The translations under genes and the position numbers were made by a program. Shown here one piece after another: positions 39,166 through 52,111 of a stretch of DNA of 64,000 nt; position 1 is the stretch's first letter, and the number at the start of each line of letters is the position of its first letter. Origin of the DNA: Candidatus Methanomethylicia archaeon (GTDB lineage: Archaea > Thermoproteota > Methanomethylicia > Culexarchaeales > Culexarchaeaceae); the NCBI GenBank assembly GCA_038727515.1, contig JAVYVS010000001.1, forward strand, positions 448,001-512,000, read 5' to 3'. Below the pieces are notes generated by a model that was not told the DNA's origin, ran no database searches, and saw only the letters and a list, made by a program, of their open reading frames with translations.

Positions 39166-39564
39166 ATGACTGTCGTAAGCATAACAATACCAGATGAATT
39201 ATTAAGTAGATTTGATGAATTTATTAAAACACGTGGATACTATAGTAGATCAGAAGCATTTAGAGATGCCATTAGAAGTTTACTTGCAGAAGCAGAAATA
39301 TCAAAATTAAAAGAAGGGAAAATTGCTGCAACCATAATGATAACATACGATTATAATAGTAGAGATATAGATTTAAGATTAAGTGAGATTAGACATGAAT
39401 TTGATGATGCAATAATCGAGAATATACATAGACATGTAGATCAGAAATACTGTTTAGAAATACTTATTGTTGAAGGAAGTAATGATAGAATAATGAGGTT
39501 AATTGGGAGAATAAGAGGTTTAAGAGGGATACAGCAAGTAAAAGCTATATACATGGAACTTTAA
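39166..39564 (+). CDS. nikR: NikR-family ribbon-helix-helix metal-responsive regulator
   Basis: VSITIP...SRSEAFRDAIR RHH domain; H...HxH...CLE metal site conserved; GGTGG RBS. Confidence 0.88.
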   Translation: MTVVSITIPDELLSRFDEFIKTRGYYSRSEAFRDAIRSLLAEAEISKLKEGKIAATIMITYDYNSRDIDLRLSEIRHEFDDAIIENIHRHVDQKYCLEILIVEGSNDRIMRLIGRIRGLRGIQQVKAIYMEL

Positions 39565-40457
39565 ACAACTCTAATAAGAGGCTTTAATAAATTCATTTTA
39601 GCATTAATCTTAACTTTATCACCAATCTCAAGTATATTTCCAGATTCAATGTAAATTGAAGTTAGAGAGGAAGAGAAAATAGCGGATTCAAGAGGATCAC
39701 CGCTTAAATCATACATGTATAGAAAAGCCGTTGTACAAATATCTCCAGCACCAGTTTCTTCAATAACTGAATTAACTATTGAGGGTATATGGTAAATGAG
39801 GTTATCATAAGCAAGATACATACCTTCACGCCCCATAGTTAACAATACTATCAAGCCATATTTATTGGAGAGATACTTAGCAGATTTAATTGAATCAAGG
39901 ATTCCAGTACCCACAAATGCTTCAAGGAAATCACAATGTAAAACATCAGTATACTCAAATAATTCATCAATAAAGATTGGTTTAACAAGTTTAATGAATC
40001 CTTGAGAATCAAAAAACCTCATAAATCCCTGTAAATCAATTGAGCATAATTTTGAATTTTCATAAACATATTTAACTATATCCATTGACACTTCATTGGC
40101 GACAGGTCCTACATGTACAATTATATTTTCATTAATTACATCAAGTACATCGTTAATATGAATATCACTACATCTACCCATAATTCTAATCACTCTATCC
40201 CCATCATATTTAAGTAGAAAGGATGTTGAAGGTATATCTTCAAATTTAACTCTAGACATATTTATTCCAAAGGATTCTAAGTTCTTTAAATATTCACGTG
40301 GGAAATCGAAGCCAACTTTAGATATTAAACCAACATTCCAACCTAAGATTTTAGCTACCATACTCGAGTAATATGCTGTACCACCCATGCATTTCTTAAA
40401 ACTCACACCTCTAACAATATTATCTAAAGTTAAATGTCCAATAACATAGAAATCCAA
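39561..40457 (-). CDS. PfkB family carbohydrate kinase
   Basis: IGHLTLD, GGTAYY, DLQG and ETGAGD motifs; start re-called at TTG 40457. Confidence 0.85.
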   Translation of the reverse strand: MDFYVIGHLTLDNIVRGVSFKKCMGGTAYYSSMVAKILGWNVGLISKVGFDFPREYLKNLESFGINMSRVKFEDIPSTSFLLKYDGDRVIRIMGRCSDIHINDVLDVINENIIVHVGPVANEVSMDIVKYVYENSKLCSIDLQGFMRFFDSQGFIKLVKPIFIDELFEYTDVLHCDFLEAFVGTGILDSIKSAKYLSNKYGLIVLLTMGREGMYLAYDNLIYHIPSIVNSVIEETGAGDICTTAFLYMYDLSGDPLESAIFSSSLTSIYIESGNILEIGDKVKINAKMNLLKPLIRVV

Positions 40458-40553
40458 TTTAAACACCAAATATAAATGTGAAAGATAAGTTAAAATAGTA
40501 ATTGCAATTAATTTTAGAAAGCAATTTAAACGATGCATGATATAGATTATTCT

Positions 40554-45360: not shown

Positions 45361-46212
45361 TTAATATGAAAAGAATATATTTAAACCAATTTCTTTAGAA
45401 TATTCAGTTAACTTGTTTTTCATAAAATTATAATACTTATTATACCCATAAATTAGAATTCTTCTAATAGAATCTCTATGATGTATTGGTAGAAAAGATG
45501 TAAGATCATTTATGTATTTAAGTGAATCTCCATGTATATTAAGCCTATCTACAACAACATATTCAACACCTACTTCAACCAATTTATTCATTAAATCATA
45601 AACGTATTTTTCATTCAATGGCATTAATGGAGCAATAAAGGCATAAGTTTTAATTCCAGAATCACGTAAAGTCTTGATGGCTTTAATTCTTTCCATTACA
45701 GGTGGAGTTTTAGGTTCAAATTTAACTCTTAAATCTTCATTTAAATTTATGAATGAAAAACCAGCGTATATATTATTAAATTTTGACAATATATCTAAAT
45801 CTCTTAATATCAATGGCGATTTAGTTAAAATATATATTTCAAAATTACTTTTAAGCAGAAGCTCCAAGATTCTACGTGTAATCATAAATTTACTCTCAAG
45901 AGGTTGATATGGATCAGTAATACTACTAATCAAAACTCTACCATTAGAATTACGTTTCAATTCCCTAATTAAAACTCTAGGTGCATTAATTTTAGCATAA
46001 ACATATTCACCCCAAGGCATATCCCTAAATTTATATCCAACATAGAATCTCCCATAACAATACCTACATCCATGTTCACAACCAATATATGGATTAATGG
46101 AATAATCAATATCATAAAGCAAACTTTTATTTAAAACAGATTTACAATAAATTTCACCAATCTTCAATTCAACCAATAAATTATTTGAATAGATAGATTT
46201 ATTTATATGCAT
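45361..46212 (-). CDS. SplB-like radical SAM protein (DNA repair photolyase family)
   Basis: INPYIGCEHGCRYCY, SSITDPYQPLE, LTKS and FEP motifs; true start probably near 46167-46176. Confidence 0.88.
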   Translation of the reverse strand: MHINKSIYSNNLLVELKIGEIYCKSVLNKSLLYDIDYSINPYIGCEHGCRYCYGRFYVGYKFRDMPWGEYVYAKINAPRVLIRELKRNSNGRVLISSITDPYQPLESKFMITRRILELLLKSNFEIYILTKSPLILRDLDILSKFNNIYAGFSFINLNEDLRVKFEPKTPPVMERIKAIKTLRDSGIKTYAFIAPLMPLNEKYVYDLMNKLVEVGVEYVVVDRLNIHGDSLKYINDLTSFLPIHHRDSIRRILIYGYNKYYNFMKNKLTEYSKEIGLNIFFSY

Positions 46213-46234: not shown

Positions 46235-47608
46235 ATGAAGGAAGATCATGAAAAGAGGAAATTTGTGAAGAAGGTTAAGAGGAAGATACCATGGATTGAA
46301 CAATTAATAGAAAACTATAGAGATGCATTAGACTTAAACACGATAGATGTAGAAATAAGCATTAGAAGTAAAAATATGAATTTATGTATATATTGCAGGG
46401 GGGCACATAATCTATGTGGTAAAATTAGATGCCCAATAACTATAAAACTATATTCATACCTTAAAAATAGAGTTAAAATACATGGAATTAATATTGAAGG
46501 ATCATCACCACCAGGAGTTTTTGTAGGGAGATATGGATATCCCAATGTTCAAATGGGACCATTAATACCACCAGTAATTGGGAATACAGAAATATACGAT
46601 TATCCAGAGAAATGGCTTGGAATGAGCTTAGAAGATATAGTGGATATAAGGCTGCAGCTAATTAGAAGTAGATTTCAAATAAACGTAAAGAGAATTGAAG
46701 ATAAAAATAGAAATTTAGAGATAACACAAGAAATATCTCTATCACAAAGACCAGTAGATGCAGAAGTACAATTTTTAAAACCACCTGGAAGTAGGATATT
46801 ATTGGATGATGAAATACAACCAATTGGACCTTCAGCACCAATAAACAAGATAATAGTATCAAATGTAAGTGTAAATCCAATAATGGAGAAAATTTATTAT
46901 GATTATGATTTAAAAGCTTCAGAAGCAATCATGGAATTATTCAAATATAACATACCAGTAAGCAATATACAGAGGGTATTAAGTGTTGGAGTACTTGGTG
47001 TTAAAAGGGATAGGAGAATAGTTCCAACGAGATGGAGTATAACGGCTGTAGATAGTACGATTTCAAGGAGATTGAGGGATGAAAAGATTAAGAGAAATCC
47101 ATTGATAAATGAATATCGAGTATATGAATCAGAACTTCTTGGAAATAAATTCTTAGTAATAATGTTTCCAGATGCATGGCAATATGAATTTATGGAGGCA
47201 TGGTATCCTGGAACAGCATGGAATCCAGATATGAATATGATAGCAATAGGTGGAGATTACGAACCATATGAGGGTAGAACTACCTATGCTCAAATAGGTG
47301 GATGCTATTATGCAGCTAGATTAGCAACAACAGAATACCTTGAGAAAGAGGGTAGACAAGCGGCAGTACTAATATTTAGAGAAGCATACCCAGAATACAT
47401 ATTACCATTAGGTGTATGGGTTGTAAGAGAAGGAGTTAGAAAAGCCTATAAAAACAAACCACTGAAATTTAACACTATAGAAGAAGCATTAAAATATGCT
47501 TCAACTAGATTAAAGATAGATATGAAATATTGGCTTGAAGAAAGTAAATTGTTAAGAAATGAAATTGGCCAAAAGAAGATTTTAGATTATATTAAGCGCA
47601 AACTTTGA
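46235..47608 (+). CDS. nreA: Nre family DNA repair protein
   Basis: CxxC...CG-x-x-x-CP, GSSPP-x-VFVG-x-x-GYP, VPTRWSITAVD, GGCYYAARL, C-terminal PIP box QKKILDYI (47570-47593). Confidence 0.93.
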   Translation: MKEDHEKRKFVKKVKRKIPWIEQLIENYRDALDLNTIDVEISIRSKNMNLCIYCRGAHNLCGKIRCPITIKLYSYLKNRVKIHGINIEGSSPPGVFVGRYGYPNVQMGPLIPPVIGNTEIYDYPEKWLGMSLEDIVDIRLQLIRSRFQINVKRIEDKNRNLEITQEISLSQRPVDAEVQFLKPPGSRILLDDEIQPIGPSAPINKIIVSNVSVNPIMEKIYYDYDLKASEAIMELFKYNIPVSNIQRVLSVGVLGVKRDRRIVPTRWSITAVDSTISRRLRDEKIKRNPLINEYRVYESELLGNKFLVIMFPDAWQYEFMEAWYPGTAWNPDMNMIAIGGDYEPYEGRTTYAQIGGCYYAARLATTEYLEKEGRQAAVLIFREAYPEYILPLGVWVVREGVRKAYKNKPLKFNTIEEALKYASTRLKIDMKYWLEESKLLRNEIGQKKILDYIKRKL

Positions 47609-48171
47609 AGATTTAAATTTATAGTTAAATCCATTAAGTTCATTAGGAATTTGGTCATTTCACGTTCATTAATTGAAATACCCGTAGAAAATTTATCTTC
47701 AATAAAACCATTAAAATAGGCATTCCCAATAAATGTTTTACATAATTTAAGAGCATCAACTATCAACCCCAAATCTCCAATATGATAATAAATGCTAACA
47801 TCATTTATAATTAGAATGTTACTTGGGTTATCAATGAAGTCTTTGAGTGCACTCTCACATCTAAACCTATTAATCTTAGCATACATTAAAACCTCATCTC
47901 TACATTTACCGAGTATCCTAGGAGGATAAGTATCAACATCAACATATCTCTTAACAAGATTTTGATGAAAAGAATACTCAATAAGTTTACCACCAACCCT
48001 CCTACCAGAATGATATATGGAGATAGGAGCAAAATCCAATATTGTAATTTCACTTCCAAAACCAAGTTCTATAAATTTATTAACAATATTTAATGTTAAT
48101 ATGGTTTTACCAGAACCAACATCACCAACTAATAGAATCCTCTTACCAAGGAGATCAGAAGCTCTAAACAT
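47587..48171 (-). CDS. Uncharacterised small P-loop NTPase
   Basis: GDVGSGKT Walker A; ILIINDVSIY atypical Walker B. Confidence 0.75.
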   Translation of the reverse strand: MFRASDLLGKRILLVGDVGSGKTILTLNIVNKFIELGFGSEITILDFAPISIYHSGRRVGGKLIEYSFHQNLVKRYVDVDTYPPRILGKCRDEVLMYAKINRFRCESALKDFIDNPSNILIINDVSIYYHIGDLGLIVDALKLCKTFIGNAYFNGFIEDKFSTGISINEREMTKFLMNLMDLTINLNLQSLRLI

Positions 48172-48836: not shown

Positions 48837-49760
48837 TTATATCTTCTTTCCTTTATTAACTAACTCATCTGGAGAAATTAAAACCATTGTAGGTTTGAAT
48901 ATTCCTTCATATTTCAACTTTTTTGCTGGGTTATTGATGATTATTAGTTCAGGTTTTTTAGTTGCATTGAAAACGACATATAGCCAATATTGTTCTTTAA
49001 ACCTTTTGGCCTTAGACCATTCATTGGGGGTTAGGGTTATGGAACCTATATCGGCTCTTGCTTTTACTTCGATGTATCTTATTTCATTTCTACCCTTTGA
49101 TATTATGTCGAAGCCTAGGTTTTCTTTGGATACATCTTCAGGTTCTCTGCCTTGGCTTTTCTCAAACTCCATGGCTACCTGCATGCCAGCTTTCTCAACT
49201 TCTTCTTTTGAAGTCTCTTCCCTTCCTTCAAGCATCTCTTCAGTTTCTTCTCTTTCTTTAAGCATTCTTTCATAACATAATTTTGAAACATTCTCCAAAA
49301 TATTTATAACTTTATCTGGTTCATTGGTATAAAGCCATAATACAGATCTTCTACCCTTCTTCAACCCAACATAACTATGCTTTAAATTAGTAAAAAATCT
49401 ATATTCAGGAGTTATATCAAGCCTCCTCCCCTTATTATCTATTACAGCTCTATCCGTAATCTTGTATATGGAGAATGTGGGTATGAAGGGGTATGGTGAA
49501 AACCACATAACAACAAATACCACTATCATAGCTAAAACATCGATAAACAAAAATAGTATGAATGCAAGTGTGAAGTAGAAGGATAATAAGCCTATAGCTC
49601 TTAAACGTCGATAATTCTTATCATTATTACTAAGTTCAACAGCATTCGTTTCATACAAAACTTTCTCTATTTCTTCAGGTTTTTCTTCATCAGATAATTC
49701 CTTAGAAGTCTCAGACTCATTCACCAAAATAAGACACCTAAAGAGATTCTGTAAATTCAT
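48837..49760 (-). CDS. Membrane protein fused to a C-terminal DUF3883 (PD-(D/E)xK-like nuclease) domain
   Basis: Two TM helices, a small beta domain, an acidic linker, then VEKAGMQVAMEFE...DVS...GFDI...IEVK...LTPNEW...YWLYVV; true start probably near 49724-49727. Confidence 0.8.
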   Translation of the reverse strand: MNLQNLFRCLILVNESETSKELSDEEKPEEIEKVLYETNAVELSNNDKNYRRLRAIGLLSFYFTLAFILFLFIDVLAMIVVFVVMWFSPYPFIPTFSIYKITDRAVIDNKGRRLDITPEYRFFTNLKHSYVGLKKGRRSVLWLYTNEPDKVINILENVSKLCYERMLKEREETEEMLEGREETSKEEVEKAGMQVAMEFEKSQGREPEDVSKENLGFDIISKGRNEIRYIEVKARADIGSITLTPNEWSKAKRFKEQYWLYVVFNATKKPELIIINNPAKKLKYEGIFKPTMVLISPDELVNKGKKI

Positions 49761-51060: not shown

Positions 51061-51175
51061 AACAGTAAAATATCTAAACAAAGGTAGATAAAGATATTTC
51101 CAAGTAAAAATCAATACACTTTAAAATCTTGAGATAAATAAATATACTATTGAGAATTTAAAGGTGAATTAAAAT

Positions 51176-52111
51176 TTGAGTGAAAGAATAATATTCATCG
51201 GCCATACATCCATAGATAAAGTAAAAAATATTTATGGTGAAAGAGAGCAACCTGGAGGAGCAGCATTATATTCCTCAATAGCTGCAAAAACATTATATGA
51301 TAATGTTGGATTAATCTCAGCAATAGGTAAAGACTACAAATATAAACATATATTCAATATCTTCAAAAATAAAATAATAAAGGAGGTAAGAGTACCATCA
51401 ACATATTTTGAAATATATTATGATGAAAAATGGAATGCAAAATATACTAAAGCAAGGATAGGTGCTGGAAGATATGTTAAAGCTGAAATAATACCAACAC
51501 ATTGGATGACTAGGAAAAATGTATTCCACATTTCACCTATGACACCAAGTAAAGTTGAAAGGATAATAGATCGCATTAGAAAATATACACCTAAATCAAT
51601 GATATCAGTAAATAGTTGGAGCGGTTATATGAAAGATGGAAAACAGAGGAAACATTTAATGAATATAATGAAGAAAGTGGATTTAATGGTTTTAAATGAA
51701 ACGGAAGCAAAACTACTTGCAAAAACAGATTCATTAACACAAGCAATGAATTTATTAAAATGTAAAATGCTTGTTGTAACCCTAGGATCCCTTGGAGCAT
51801 TAATTAAAATGAATGATGAAATCATGATGGTACCAGCATTAACAAGTATGGAACTTAAAATAATGGATACAACTGGTGCAGGAGACTCATGGTGTGGAGC
51901 ATTCTTAGCAGCATACAAATTAACTGGAGAAATAACAAAAGCAATAATAACAGCTTCTCTAATAGCAACAATAAAATGCACTGGGTGGGGATTTGAAGAA
52001 TTAATAAAATTGAGATTTCAATCTGCAGATGATGTAGTAAAACACATACTAAAGATAAAGGAGAGAGATAAACAGAAAAGATTAACAGAATACTTTAAAA
52101 GGGCTATTTAA
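51176..52111 (+). CDS. PfkB family kinase with a C-terminal PIP box
   Basis: IGHTSID, GGAALY, NETEA and DTTGAGD motifs; C-terminal QKRLTEYF. Confidence 0.9.
   Translation: MSERIIFIGHTSIDKVKNIYGEREQPGGAALYSSIAAKTLYDNVGLISAIGKDYKYKHIFNIFKNKIIKEVRVPSTYFEIYYDEKWNAKYTKARIGAGRYVKAEIIPTHWMTRKNVFHISPMTPSKVERIIDRIRKYTPKSMISVNSWSGYMKDGKQRKHLMNIMKKVDLMVLNETEAKLLAKTDSLTQAMNLLKCKMLVVTLGSLGALIKMNDEIMMVPALTSMELKIMDTTGAGDSWCGAFLAAYKLTGEITKAIITASLIATIKCTGWGFEELIKLRFQSADDVVKHILKIKERDKQKRLTEYFKRAI

What the first reader, a model, noticed from the sequence alone, without database searches (positions are those of the whole stretch)
51176..52111. PfkB-family kinase with a perfect C-terminal PCNA-interacting (PIP) box
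Seen: after the kinase fold ends, a short helical tail carries QKRLTEYF (52073-52096), an exact match to Q-x-x-[LIM]-x-x-[FY]-[FY], four residues from the C-terminus. The other PfkB in this window has no such tail. Known: terminal PIP boxes recruit archaeal Fen1, PolB, RNase HII and NreA to PCNA, and PfkB members include nucleoside kinases. Inference: a small-molecule kinase docked on the sliding clamp, perhaps salvaging or sanitising nucleosides at replication or repair sites, or acting on nucleic-acid ends. I am not aware of this being described.
Basis: partly seen in the sequence, partly recalled or inferred. Interest (0 to 1): 0.75.

Follow-up and report, generated by a model that had tools for sequence, protein, structure and literature searches.

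The report
Sugar/nucleoside kinase with conserved clamp-binding tail
A small-molecule kinase kept in single copy across several archaeal groups ends in a conserved docking motif for the DNA sliding clamp and is unusually positively charged, which suggests a metabolic-type enzyme working on or beside DNA, a pairing I found described nowhere.

Summary
Observation confirmed. 51176-52111 encodes a 311-aa PfkB kinase with intact catalytic motifs, ending QKRLTEYF plus four residues. The genome is Culexarchaeum-like. The motif is conserved. Among 82 orthologs under 80% identity (Culexarchaeales, Methanomethylicales, Bathyarchaeia, Hydrothermarchaeota), 68 keep Q-x-x-h-x-x-aromatic, 10 keep Q-x-x-h and 4 lack it. 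Only the last aromatic is variable. The orthologs form one clade (100/99), are single-copy and have no conserved neighbours. A model docks the tail in the genome's PCNA pocket: score 0.77, best control 0.00, a mark reached by 58/80 solved and 2/110 mismatched pairs, possibly from memory of PIP complexes. New here: the clade is strongly basic (median pI 9.45 against 6.27 for other PfkBs; more basic than a same-genome paralog in 19/19 pairs). A separate Undinarchaeota PfkB lineage also ends in a PIP-like KGTLLDFF (one clade rejected, p=0.0095). Best reading: a PCNA-docked ATP-dependent nucleoside/pentose kinase. Binding is about 80% likely; the substrate is unknown. A DNA-linked substrate is not excluded. 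No paper found.

The parts
51163..51167 (+). GGTGA Shine-Dalgarno-like site 8 nt before the TTG start
   Evidence: read from the sequence; function inferred
51176..52111 (+). PfkB/ribokinase-fold kinase gene, 311 aa, net charge +21, pI 9.7
51215..51259 (+). Substrate-site Asp14, short 12-residue lid hairpin and GG motif (Gly27-Gly28)
   Evidence: D14, G27 and G28 are 100% conserved in 82 orthologs; lid length 12 in 120/121; role taken from ribokinase/adenosine kinase knowledge
51401..51457 (+). Second lid hairpin with conserved aromatics (F78, Y82, W86, Y90)
   Evidence: base stacking is inference
51545..51676 (+). Basic helices 124-167 with conserved K126, R135, R158 and aromatics W148, Y151
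   Evidence: residues 121-160 carry the highest mean positive charge; K126 99%, R135 99%, R158 95% basic
51695..51706 (+). NxxE Mg-ATP motif (N174-E177)
   Evidence: E177 100%, N174 87%
51875..51886 (+). GAGD anion hole and catalytic base (G234-D237)
   Evidence: GAGD/GSGD/GCGD in 82/82
52073..52096 (+). C-terminal PIP box QKRLTEYF (residues 300-307), beyond the part shared with solved PfkB folds
   Evidence: Q 95%, L/I/M 99%, Y/F 85%; structural match to 3KD6 ends at residue 294; docks on PCNA in the model

Best explanation
This gene belongs to a single-copy archaeal PfkB subfamily that is an active ATP-dependent kinase and is recruited to PCNA by its C-terminal PIP box. Its basic surface helps it sit on the acidic clamp or on the DNA running through it. 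There it phosphorylates the 5'-OH of a free (deoxy)nucleoside or a related pentose, salvaging or clearing products released by repair and Okazaki-fragment nucleases. Shown here: the motif, its conservation, intact catalytic residues, basic charge and single-clade status. Modelled: PCNA docking (about 80% likely real). Inferred: a nucleoside or pentose substrate (about 50%) and the purpose of the tethering.
For: Motif conservation: 68/82 full, 10/82 partial; 74/74 Bathyarchaeia loci and 9/9 Culexarchaeales. Clade support is 100/99 even with the tail removed. The residues before Q vary in sequence and Q lies 61-65 residues after the GAGD Asp. The flavour matches NreA of the same genome (QKKILDYI), and ortholog P0010 (QRSITEFI) nearly equals the T. 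kodakarensis EndoQ PIP QRSITEFL, measured at KD 55 nM (PMC4858679). Complex model: score 0.77, best of 3 controls 0.00; that mark was reached by 58 of 80 solved and 2 of 110 mismatched pairs; runs share at least 85% of contacts; partner pLDDT at least 68; contacts are residues 299-307 with PCNA 40, 43-47, 125, 127, 224-225, 241-247. The pass may reflect memory of solved PIP complexes. Best structural matches are nucleoside kinases: 3KD6 Z 32.8, rmsd 2.7, 282 aligned; then 3UBO adenosine kinase. D14, GG, NxxE and GAGD are intact. Basic charge. A second lineage has a PIP-like tail.
Against: No experiment on binding or substrate. No conserved gene neighbours in 80 loci. All 17 orthologs checked from family f6 (taken to be Methanomethylicales) have lost the aromatic (Q-L-[TKR]-L-x-[DE]-h) although their Fen1 keeps ..L..WF, so clamp binding may be weak or lost there while the enzyme persists. 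No NCBIfam equivalog is near its cut-off (best 67 against 300 bits). Identity to 3KD6 is only 17-19%, and many sugar kinases score within a few Z units. Known core archaeal PCNA clients act on nucleic acid itself (PMC4929162). Small molecules diffuse fast, so the gain from tethering is not obvious.
Confidence: 0.45

Rival explanations
1. The PCNA-docked kinase acts on DNA or RNA itself: it phosphorylates a nucleic-acid-linked hydroxyl such as a 5'-OH end, an abasic or ribose remnant, or a sugar (glycation) adduct, as a step in repair.
For: The kinase core alone is basic (net +3.6 per 100 aa against -1.05 for other PfkBs) and the query is in the 98.6th percentile of its proteome. K126, R135, R158, W148 and Y151 are conserved in the helices next to the cleft. 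The lid is short and open. All core archaeal PCNA clients act on nucleic acid (PMC4929162). Fructoselysine kinase shows that PfkB pockets accept a sugar tethered through C1 (own knowledge).
Against: Invariant D14 and GG indicate the buried 2',3'-OH site of ribokinase and adenosine kinase, which a 3'-phosphodiester would block (own knowledge, inference). The genome already has two Clp1-type polynucleotide kinases, and no type IB topoisomerase was found. There is no linkage to repair genes. I know of no PfkB that phosphorylates a polynucleotide.
Confidence: 0.2
2. It is an ordinary salvage kinase, and PCNA binding is regulatory or moonlighting: sequestration, stabilisation or cell-cycle control of the kinase, or competition with other clamp clients, without any need for locally made product.
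For: Catalytic motifs are ordinary. The enzyme is kept where the motif has decayed (f6). The Thermococcales TIP protein is a non-catalytic PCNA inhibitor (PMC4929162). Eukaryotic PCNA binds metabolic enzymes (own knowledge).
Against: It does not explain the basic core, which persists in f6, or the appearance of both a PIP-like tail and basic charge in two separate PfkB lineages.
Confidence: 0.2
3. The tail is not a PCNA-binding element. It is an amphipathic helix that packs on the kinase, mediates oligomerisation or binds another partner, and it resembles a PIP by coincidence.
For: The monomer model draws one continuous helix 284-310. Spacing from GAGD to Q is exactly 63 in 68 of 78. Position 8 is poorly conserved. 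Related PfkBs also end in an amphipathic helix.
Against: Tail confidence falls to pLDDT 50-69 and it lies beyond the region shared with solved PfkBs. The conserved positions are exactly PIP positions 1, 4 and 7, and the protein ends within about 5 residues of the motif in most members. Bathyarchaeial members have a GG hinge before Q. The docking model passes with controls at 0.00.
Confidence: 0.15

Closest known systems
Chlorobium tepidum PfkB 'nucleoside kinase' 3KD6 (ribokinase group C type)
   Same: Best sequence (E 5e-13) and structure match (Z 32.8, rmsd 2.7, TM 0.79); short lid, GG..Y motif, GAGD.
   Different: Only 17-19% identity; bacterial; the alignment ends at residue 294, so no PIP tail; its depositors' label is the only substrate evidence I have.
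Archaeal PfkB enzymes: T. kodakarensis TK1843 cytidine kinase, TK2285 myo-inositol kinase (3W4S), ribose-1-phosphate kinases, M. jannaschii MJ0406 nucleoside kinase
   Same: Same fold and catalytic motifs; TK1843 accepts cytidine in vitro (PMC12628685).
   Different: All available models score far below cut-off; 3W4S ranks low (Z 23.7). None is reported to have a PIP. The Thermococcus protein P0190 (possibly TK1843-like, not verified) is sister to the Undinarchaeota lineage, not to this clade.
Non-core archaeal PCNA clients with a C-terminal PIP (NreA, NucS/EndoMS, EndoQ)
   Same: Terminal PIP of the same flavour appended to an enzyme domain (PMC4929162, PMC4858679).
   Different: Those act on DNA or are repair factors. 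Here the enzyme domain belongs to a small-molecule kinase family.
Eukaryotic nucleotide-pool enzymes brought to PCNA or damage sites (NUDT15, thymidylate kinase, ribonucleotide reductase) and plant PfkB proteins FLN1/2 in plastid RNA polymerase
   Same: Precedent for metabolic enzymes, and for the PfkB fold, joining nucleic-acid machines (own knowledge, not checked here).
   Different: Other folds or other partners; not archaeal; no PfkB-PIP.

Membership tests
PfkB/ribokinase family | Pfam PF00294 above the gathering score and ribokinase fold | tested here: met
   80.8 bits against 25.8; Foldseek and VIA hits are all PfkB
PfkB/ribokinase family | Catalytic motifs: substrate Asp, GG, NxxE, GAGD | tested here: met
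   D14, G27/G28, E177 and D237 are 100% conserved in 82 orthologs
PfkB/ribokinase family | Measured phosphotransferase activity | not testable with these tools
   needs an assay
Characterised archaeal PfkB equivalogs (Thermoplasmatales nucleoside kinase, ribose-1-phosphate kinases, KDG kinase, ribokinase) | Score above the NCBIfam curated cut-off | tested here: not met
   best 66.8 against 299.65; nucleoside kinase 43.5 against 450; R1P kinase 39.2 against 500
TK1843 cytidine kinase | Orthology to TK1843 | tested here: inconclusive
   the TK1843 sequence was not obtainable; the Thermococcus candidate P0190 lies outside the clade but its identity was not verified
PPi-dependent ribokinase-family kinases (TM0415 type) | Arg-containing RTGRGD-type motif in place of TTGAGD (determinants recalled from memory) | tested here: not met
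   GAGD/GSGD/GCGD in 82/82
PIP-box PCNA clients | Q-x-x-[LIM]-x-x-aromatic-aromatic near a terminus | tested here: met
   exact in the query; positions 1, 4 and 7 conserved, position 8 relaxed to hydrophobic in the family
PIP-box PCNA clients | Motif conserved in orthologs and outside the folded core | tested here: met
   decayed in family f6
PIP-box PCNA clients | Fits the PCNA front-face pocket | tested here: met
   model only: 0.77 against best control 0.00, mark reached by 58/80 solved and 2/110 mismatched pairs; may reflect memory of solved complexes
PIP-box PCNA clients | PIP-dependent physical binding | not testable with these tools
   needs SPR or pull-down

The most novel reading that the evidence does not exclude
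A ribokinase-fold enzyme has been recruited, probably twice in archaea, to the sliding clamp, where it phosphorylates a DNA-linked sugar or end (5'-OH, abasic or ribose remnant, glycation adduct). That would be a new repair chemistry and the first PfkB acting on nucleic acid.
Probability: 0.2. Interest if true: 0.9.

Novelty: new variant of a known kind. Interest (0 to 1): 0.68.

Why it matters
Every core archaeal PCNA partner acts on DNA or RNA or loads the clamp (PMC4929162). A conserved clamp-docked kinase of a small-molecule family would add a new class of partner and link nucleoside metabolism physically to replication and repair in Bathyarchaeia, Methanomethylicia and others. It offers a two-protein in vitro test of local precursor supply or sanitising at the fork, an old open question. 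If the substrate proves to be DNA-linked, it is a new repair activity. It also gives a testable lead for a protein now labelled only 'carbohydrate kinase' in some two hundred GTDB genomes.

Tried and rejected
Gene context: 80 loci and 5 distant contigs show no conserved partner. The gene is mostly alone, and neighbours follow lineage synteny. The radical SAM gene overlapping P0139 is the archaeosine enzyme RaSEA, not a repair gene. NreA and the SplB-like gene 4-6 kb upstream are not linked in other genomes. Displacement of thymidine kinase or dNK: neither was found in this genome, but both are rare across Thermoproteota (20 and 14 of 401), so the pattern says nothing. The dNK-profile hits were ordinary TMP-kinase-like proteins without a PIP. 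Link to topoisomerase IB: none found in this genome. Overlap artefact: the tail overlaps another ORF in only 7 of 76 loci and not here. Identifying TK1843 failed. Literature: no paper in the library holds PCNA+archaea+PfkB+PIP, and two archaeal interactome papers and a review name no such kinase in their main text; subscription papers are not covered. The bacterial-type promoter scan was at chance level.

Full report
OBSERVATION. The ORF at 51176-52111 (+) translates to 311 residues without a break and is a PfkB-family protein (Pfam 80.8 bits against a cut-off of 25.8). It ends QKRLTEYF-KRAI-stop, with the motif at 52073-52096. The second PfkB of the window (39561-40538, minus) has no such tail. 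The closest named relatives are Ca. Culexarchaeum and Culexmicrobium, so the genome (1.59 Mb, 33% GC) is a Culexarchaeales member of Methanomethylicia. One PCNA gene was found (G000:C4:88087-88839).

IS IT CHANCE? A strict terminal PIP has p=4.6e-4 per protein; 0.68 are expected in 1,493 ORFs and 4 are seen. A looser scan recovers the expected clients by their N-terminal sequence: Fen1 (QTTLKRWF), PolD DP2 (QAKIIEYM), a Hef/XPF-type helicase (QTTLTGFM) and NreA (QKKILDYI). The single match was therefore suggestive only. Conservation decides the question. All 120 top homologs (46-100% identity) keep Q, a hydrophobic residue at +3 and Y/F at +6 near the C-terminus. In 82 orthologs below 80% mutual identity, Q300 is 95%, position 303 is L/I/M 99%, position 305 D/E 91% and position 306 Y/F 85%, while the three residues before Q vary. 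In all, 68 have Q-x-x-h-x-x-aromatic, 10 have Q-x-x-h and 4 have neither. The eighth position is mostly L, I or M rather than aromatic, the same relaxed flavour as NreA here. As a control, none of 41 other gene families from the same loci has more than 2 members with such an end, against 81 of 81 for this family.

THE FAMILY. The PIP-bearing proteins form one clade with support 100/99 in a tree built without the tail. It covers Culexarchaeales, most other Methanomethylicia families, Bathyarchaeia and a deeper branch that includes Hydrothermarchaeota. It is essentially single-copy, present in 68 of 401 sampled Thermoproteota genomes, near-universal in the families that have it and not found in several large families. 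A scan of GTDB found 229 matching stretches. In family f6 (which I take to be Methanomethylicales) the aromatic is lost in 17 of 17, while Fen1 in those genomes keeps ..L..WF and NreA ends QRR[IM]D[DE]Y or similar. Binding there is probably weak or gone. Gene context gives no pathway: the gene usually stands alone and its neighbours track lineage synteny.

STRUCTURE AND DOCKING. AlphaFold2 gives a confident ribokinase fold (mean pLDDT 90.8), with confidence falling to 69 and 60 over residues 291-310. The best solved match is the Chlorobium nucleoside kinase 3KD6 (Z 32.8, rmsd 2.7, 282 aligned, 19% identity), and the shared part ends at residue 294, so the motif is an appendix to the usual last helix. 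Residues 278-311 folded with the genome's PCNA scored 0.77, best of three controls 0.00. That mark was reached by 58 of 80 solved complexes and 2 of 110 mismatched pairs; the runs share at least 85% of contacts and partner pLDDT is at least 68. Only residues 299-307 touch PCNA, at residues 40, 43-47, 125, 127, 199, 224-225 and 241-247, the known PIP pocket. Since PIP-PCNA complexes are solved, the pass shows likeness, not binding. Independent support: ortholog P0010 ends QRSITEFI, one residue from the EndoQ PIP QRSITEFL that binds PCNA with KD 55 nM (PMC4858679).

ENZYME. D14, G27-G28, N174/E177 and G234-A-G-D237 are intact throughout, so an active nucleotide-dependent kinase is likely, not a pseudo-enzyme. 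No curated equivalog comes near its cut-off, so the substrate cannot be transferred from a known enzyme. By ribokinase and adenosine kinase precedent (own knowledge), D14 binds ribose 2'/3'-OH and the acceptor is the 5'-OH. With the conserved lid aromatics and nucleoside kinases as top structural hits, this points to a nucleoside or C1-substituted pentose (inference).

TWO NEW OBSERVATIONS. First, the clade is strongly basic: median pI 9.45 against 6.27 for 108 other PfkB representatives; the query has net +21 and lies in the 98.6th percentile of its proteome. This holds for the core without the tail and against another PfkB of the same genome in 19 of 19 pairs (kin are not independent). The charge concentrates in residues 121-160, with K126, R135 and R158 nearly invariant. 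That fits contact with DNA or with the acidic clamp (net -7.6 per 100 aa). Second, a different PfkB lineage (about 24 full-length sequences; one member lies in GCA_002494525, an Undinarchaeales genome per PMC7414124) ends in K-[GAVST]-[TS]-L-[LMF]-[DE]-[FY]-[FLY], a PIP-like end lacking Q, and is also basic (pI 9.07). An AU test rejects joining the two lineages (p=0.0095; the groups were chosen after an earlier tree). This suggests two gains, or an old gain with several losses. That tail was not modelled with PCNA.

MECHANISM. Most likely (0.45): the kinase docks on PCNA through the tail and phosphorylates free nucleosides or pentoses near replication and repair sites. Rivals: a DNA-linked substrate (0.2), favoured by the charge and by the rule that core archaeal clamp clients act on nucleic acid (PMC4929162), disfavoured by the intact buried diol site and two resident Clp1-type kinases; regulatory binding only (0.2); no PCNA binding (0.15). 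PCNA binding overall is about 0.8.

COMPARISON AND NOVELTY. The protein is a PfkB by every test run, but belongs to no characterised subfamily. It works like a terminal-PIP client of the NreA/EndoQ kind as far as sequence and a model can show. I found no paper joining PfkB and PCNA in archaea; the library omits most subscription journals. The scan's own notes contain no earlier report of this family, but several unchecked notes describe dNK/TMK-like kinases with terminal PIPs in other genomes. I could not confirm those in the Thermoproteota hits I looked at, and they are leads only. Verdict: a real, conserved and apparently undescribed variant; interest 0.68.

Noticed in passing
P0212/P0314 family; L142:8001-8930, L200:5001-5939 (GCA_002494525, Undinarchaeales): A second, separate PfkB lineage ends in a conserved K-type PIP-like motif (KGTLLDFF) and is basic; the gene lies between secD/secF and a prepilin peptidase, near dCTP deaminase and histone genes.
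   Followed up: partly
window 45361-46212 (-) and 46235-47608 (+): SplB/PA0069-like radical SAM gene divergent from NreA; NreA ends QKKILDYIKRKL (motif 47570-47593). The Nre/SplB-like linkage is known (PMC4929162).
   Followed up: partly
G000:C2:211066-211923 (+): Metallo-beta-lactamase-fold hydrolase ending QMDLRSFFDKS, a strict terminal PIP; candidate unrecognised PCNA client (also noted as e1-5640977).
   Followed up: no
G000:C1:61834-62883 (+): Histone-deacetylase-like protein ending QQILKDYWNIN, a loose PIP match that may be chance.
   Followed up: no
window 47587-48171 (-): 194-aa P-loop protein (GDVGSGKT) with no Pfam hit, overlapping the NreA stop; present in Culexarchaeum synteny.
   Followed up: no
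window 48837-49760 (-): Membrane DUF2208-like N-terminus fused to a NOV_C (DUF3883-type) domain; orthologs in Culexarchaeales loci include shorter forms.
   Followed up: no
L093-L111 (family f6): Orthologs keep the kinase and basic charge but have lost the PIP aromatics (Q-L-[TKR]-L-x-[DE]-h), a natural control for binding assays.
   Followed up: partly
L146:7457-8939: In a Hydrothermarchaeota-like genome the PIP-bearing PfkB is divergent from a cytidine/dCMP deaminase gene; a single instance, weak hint at a nucleoside substrate.
   Followed up: no
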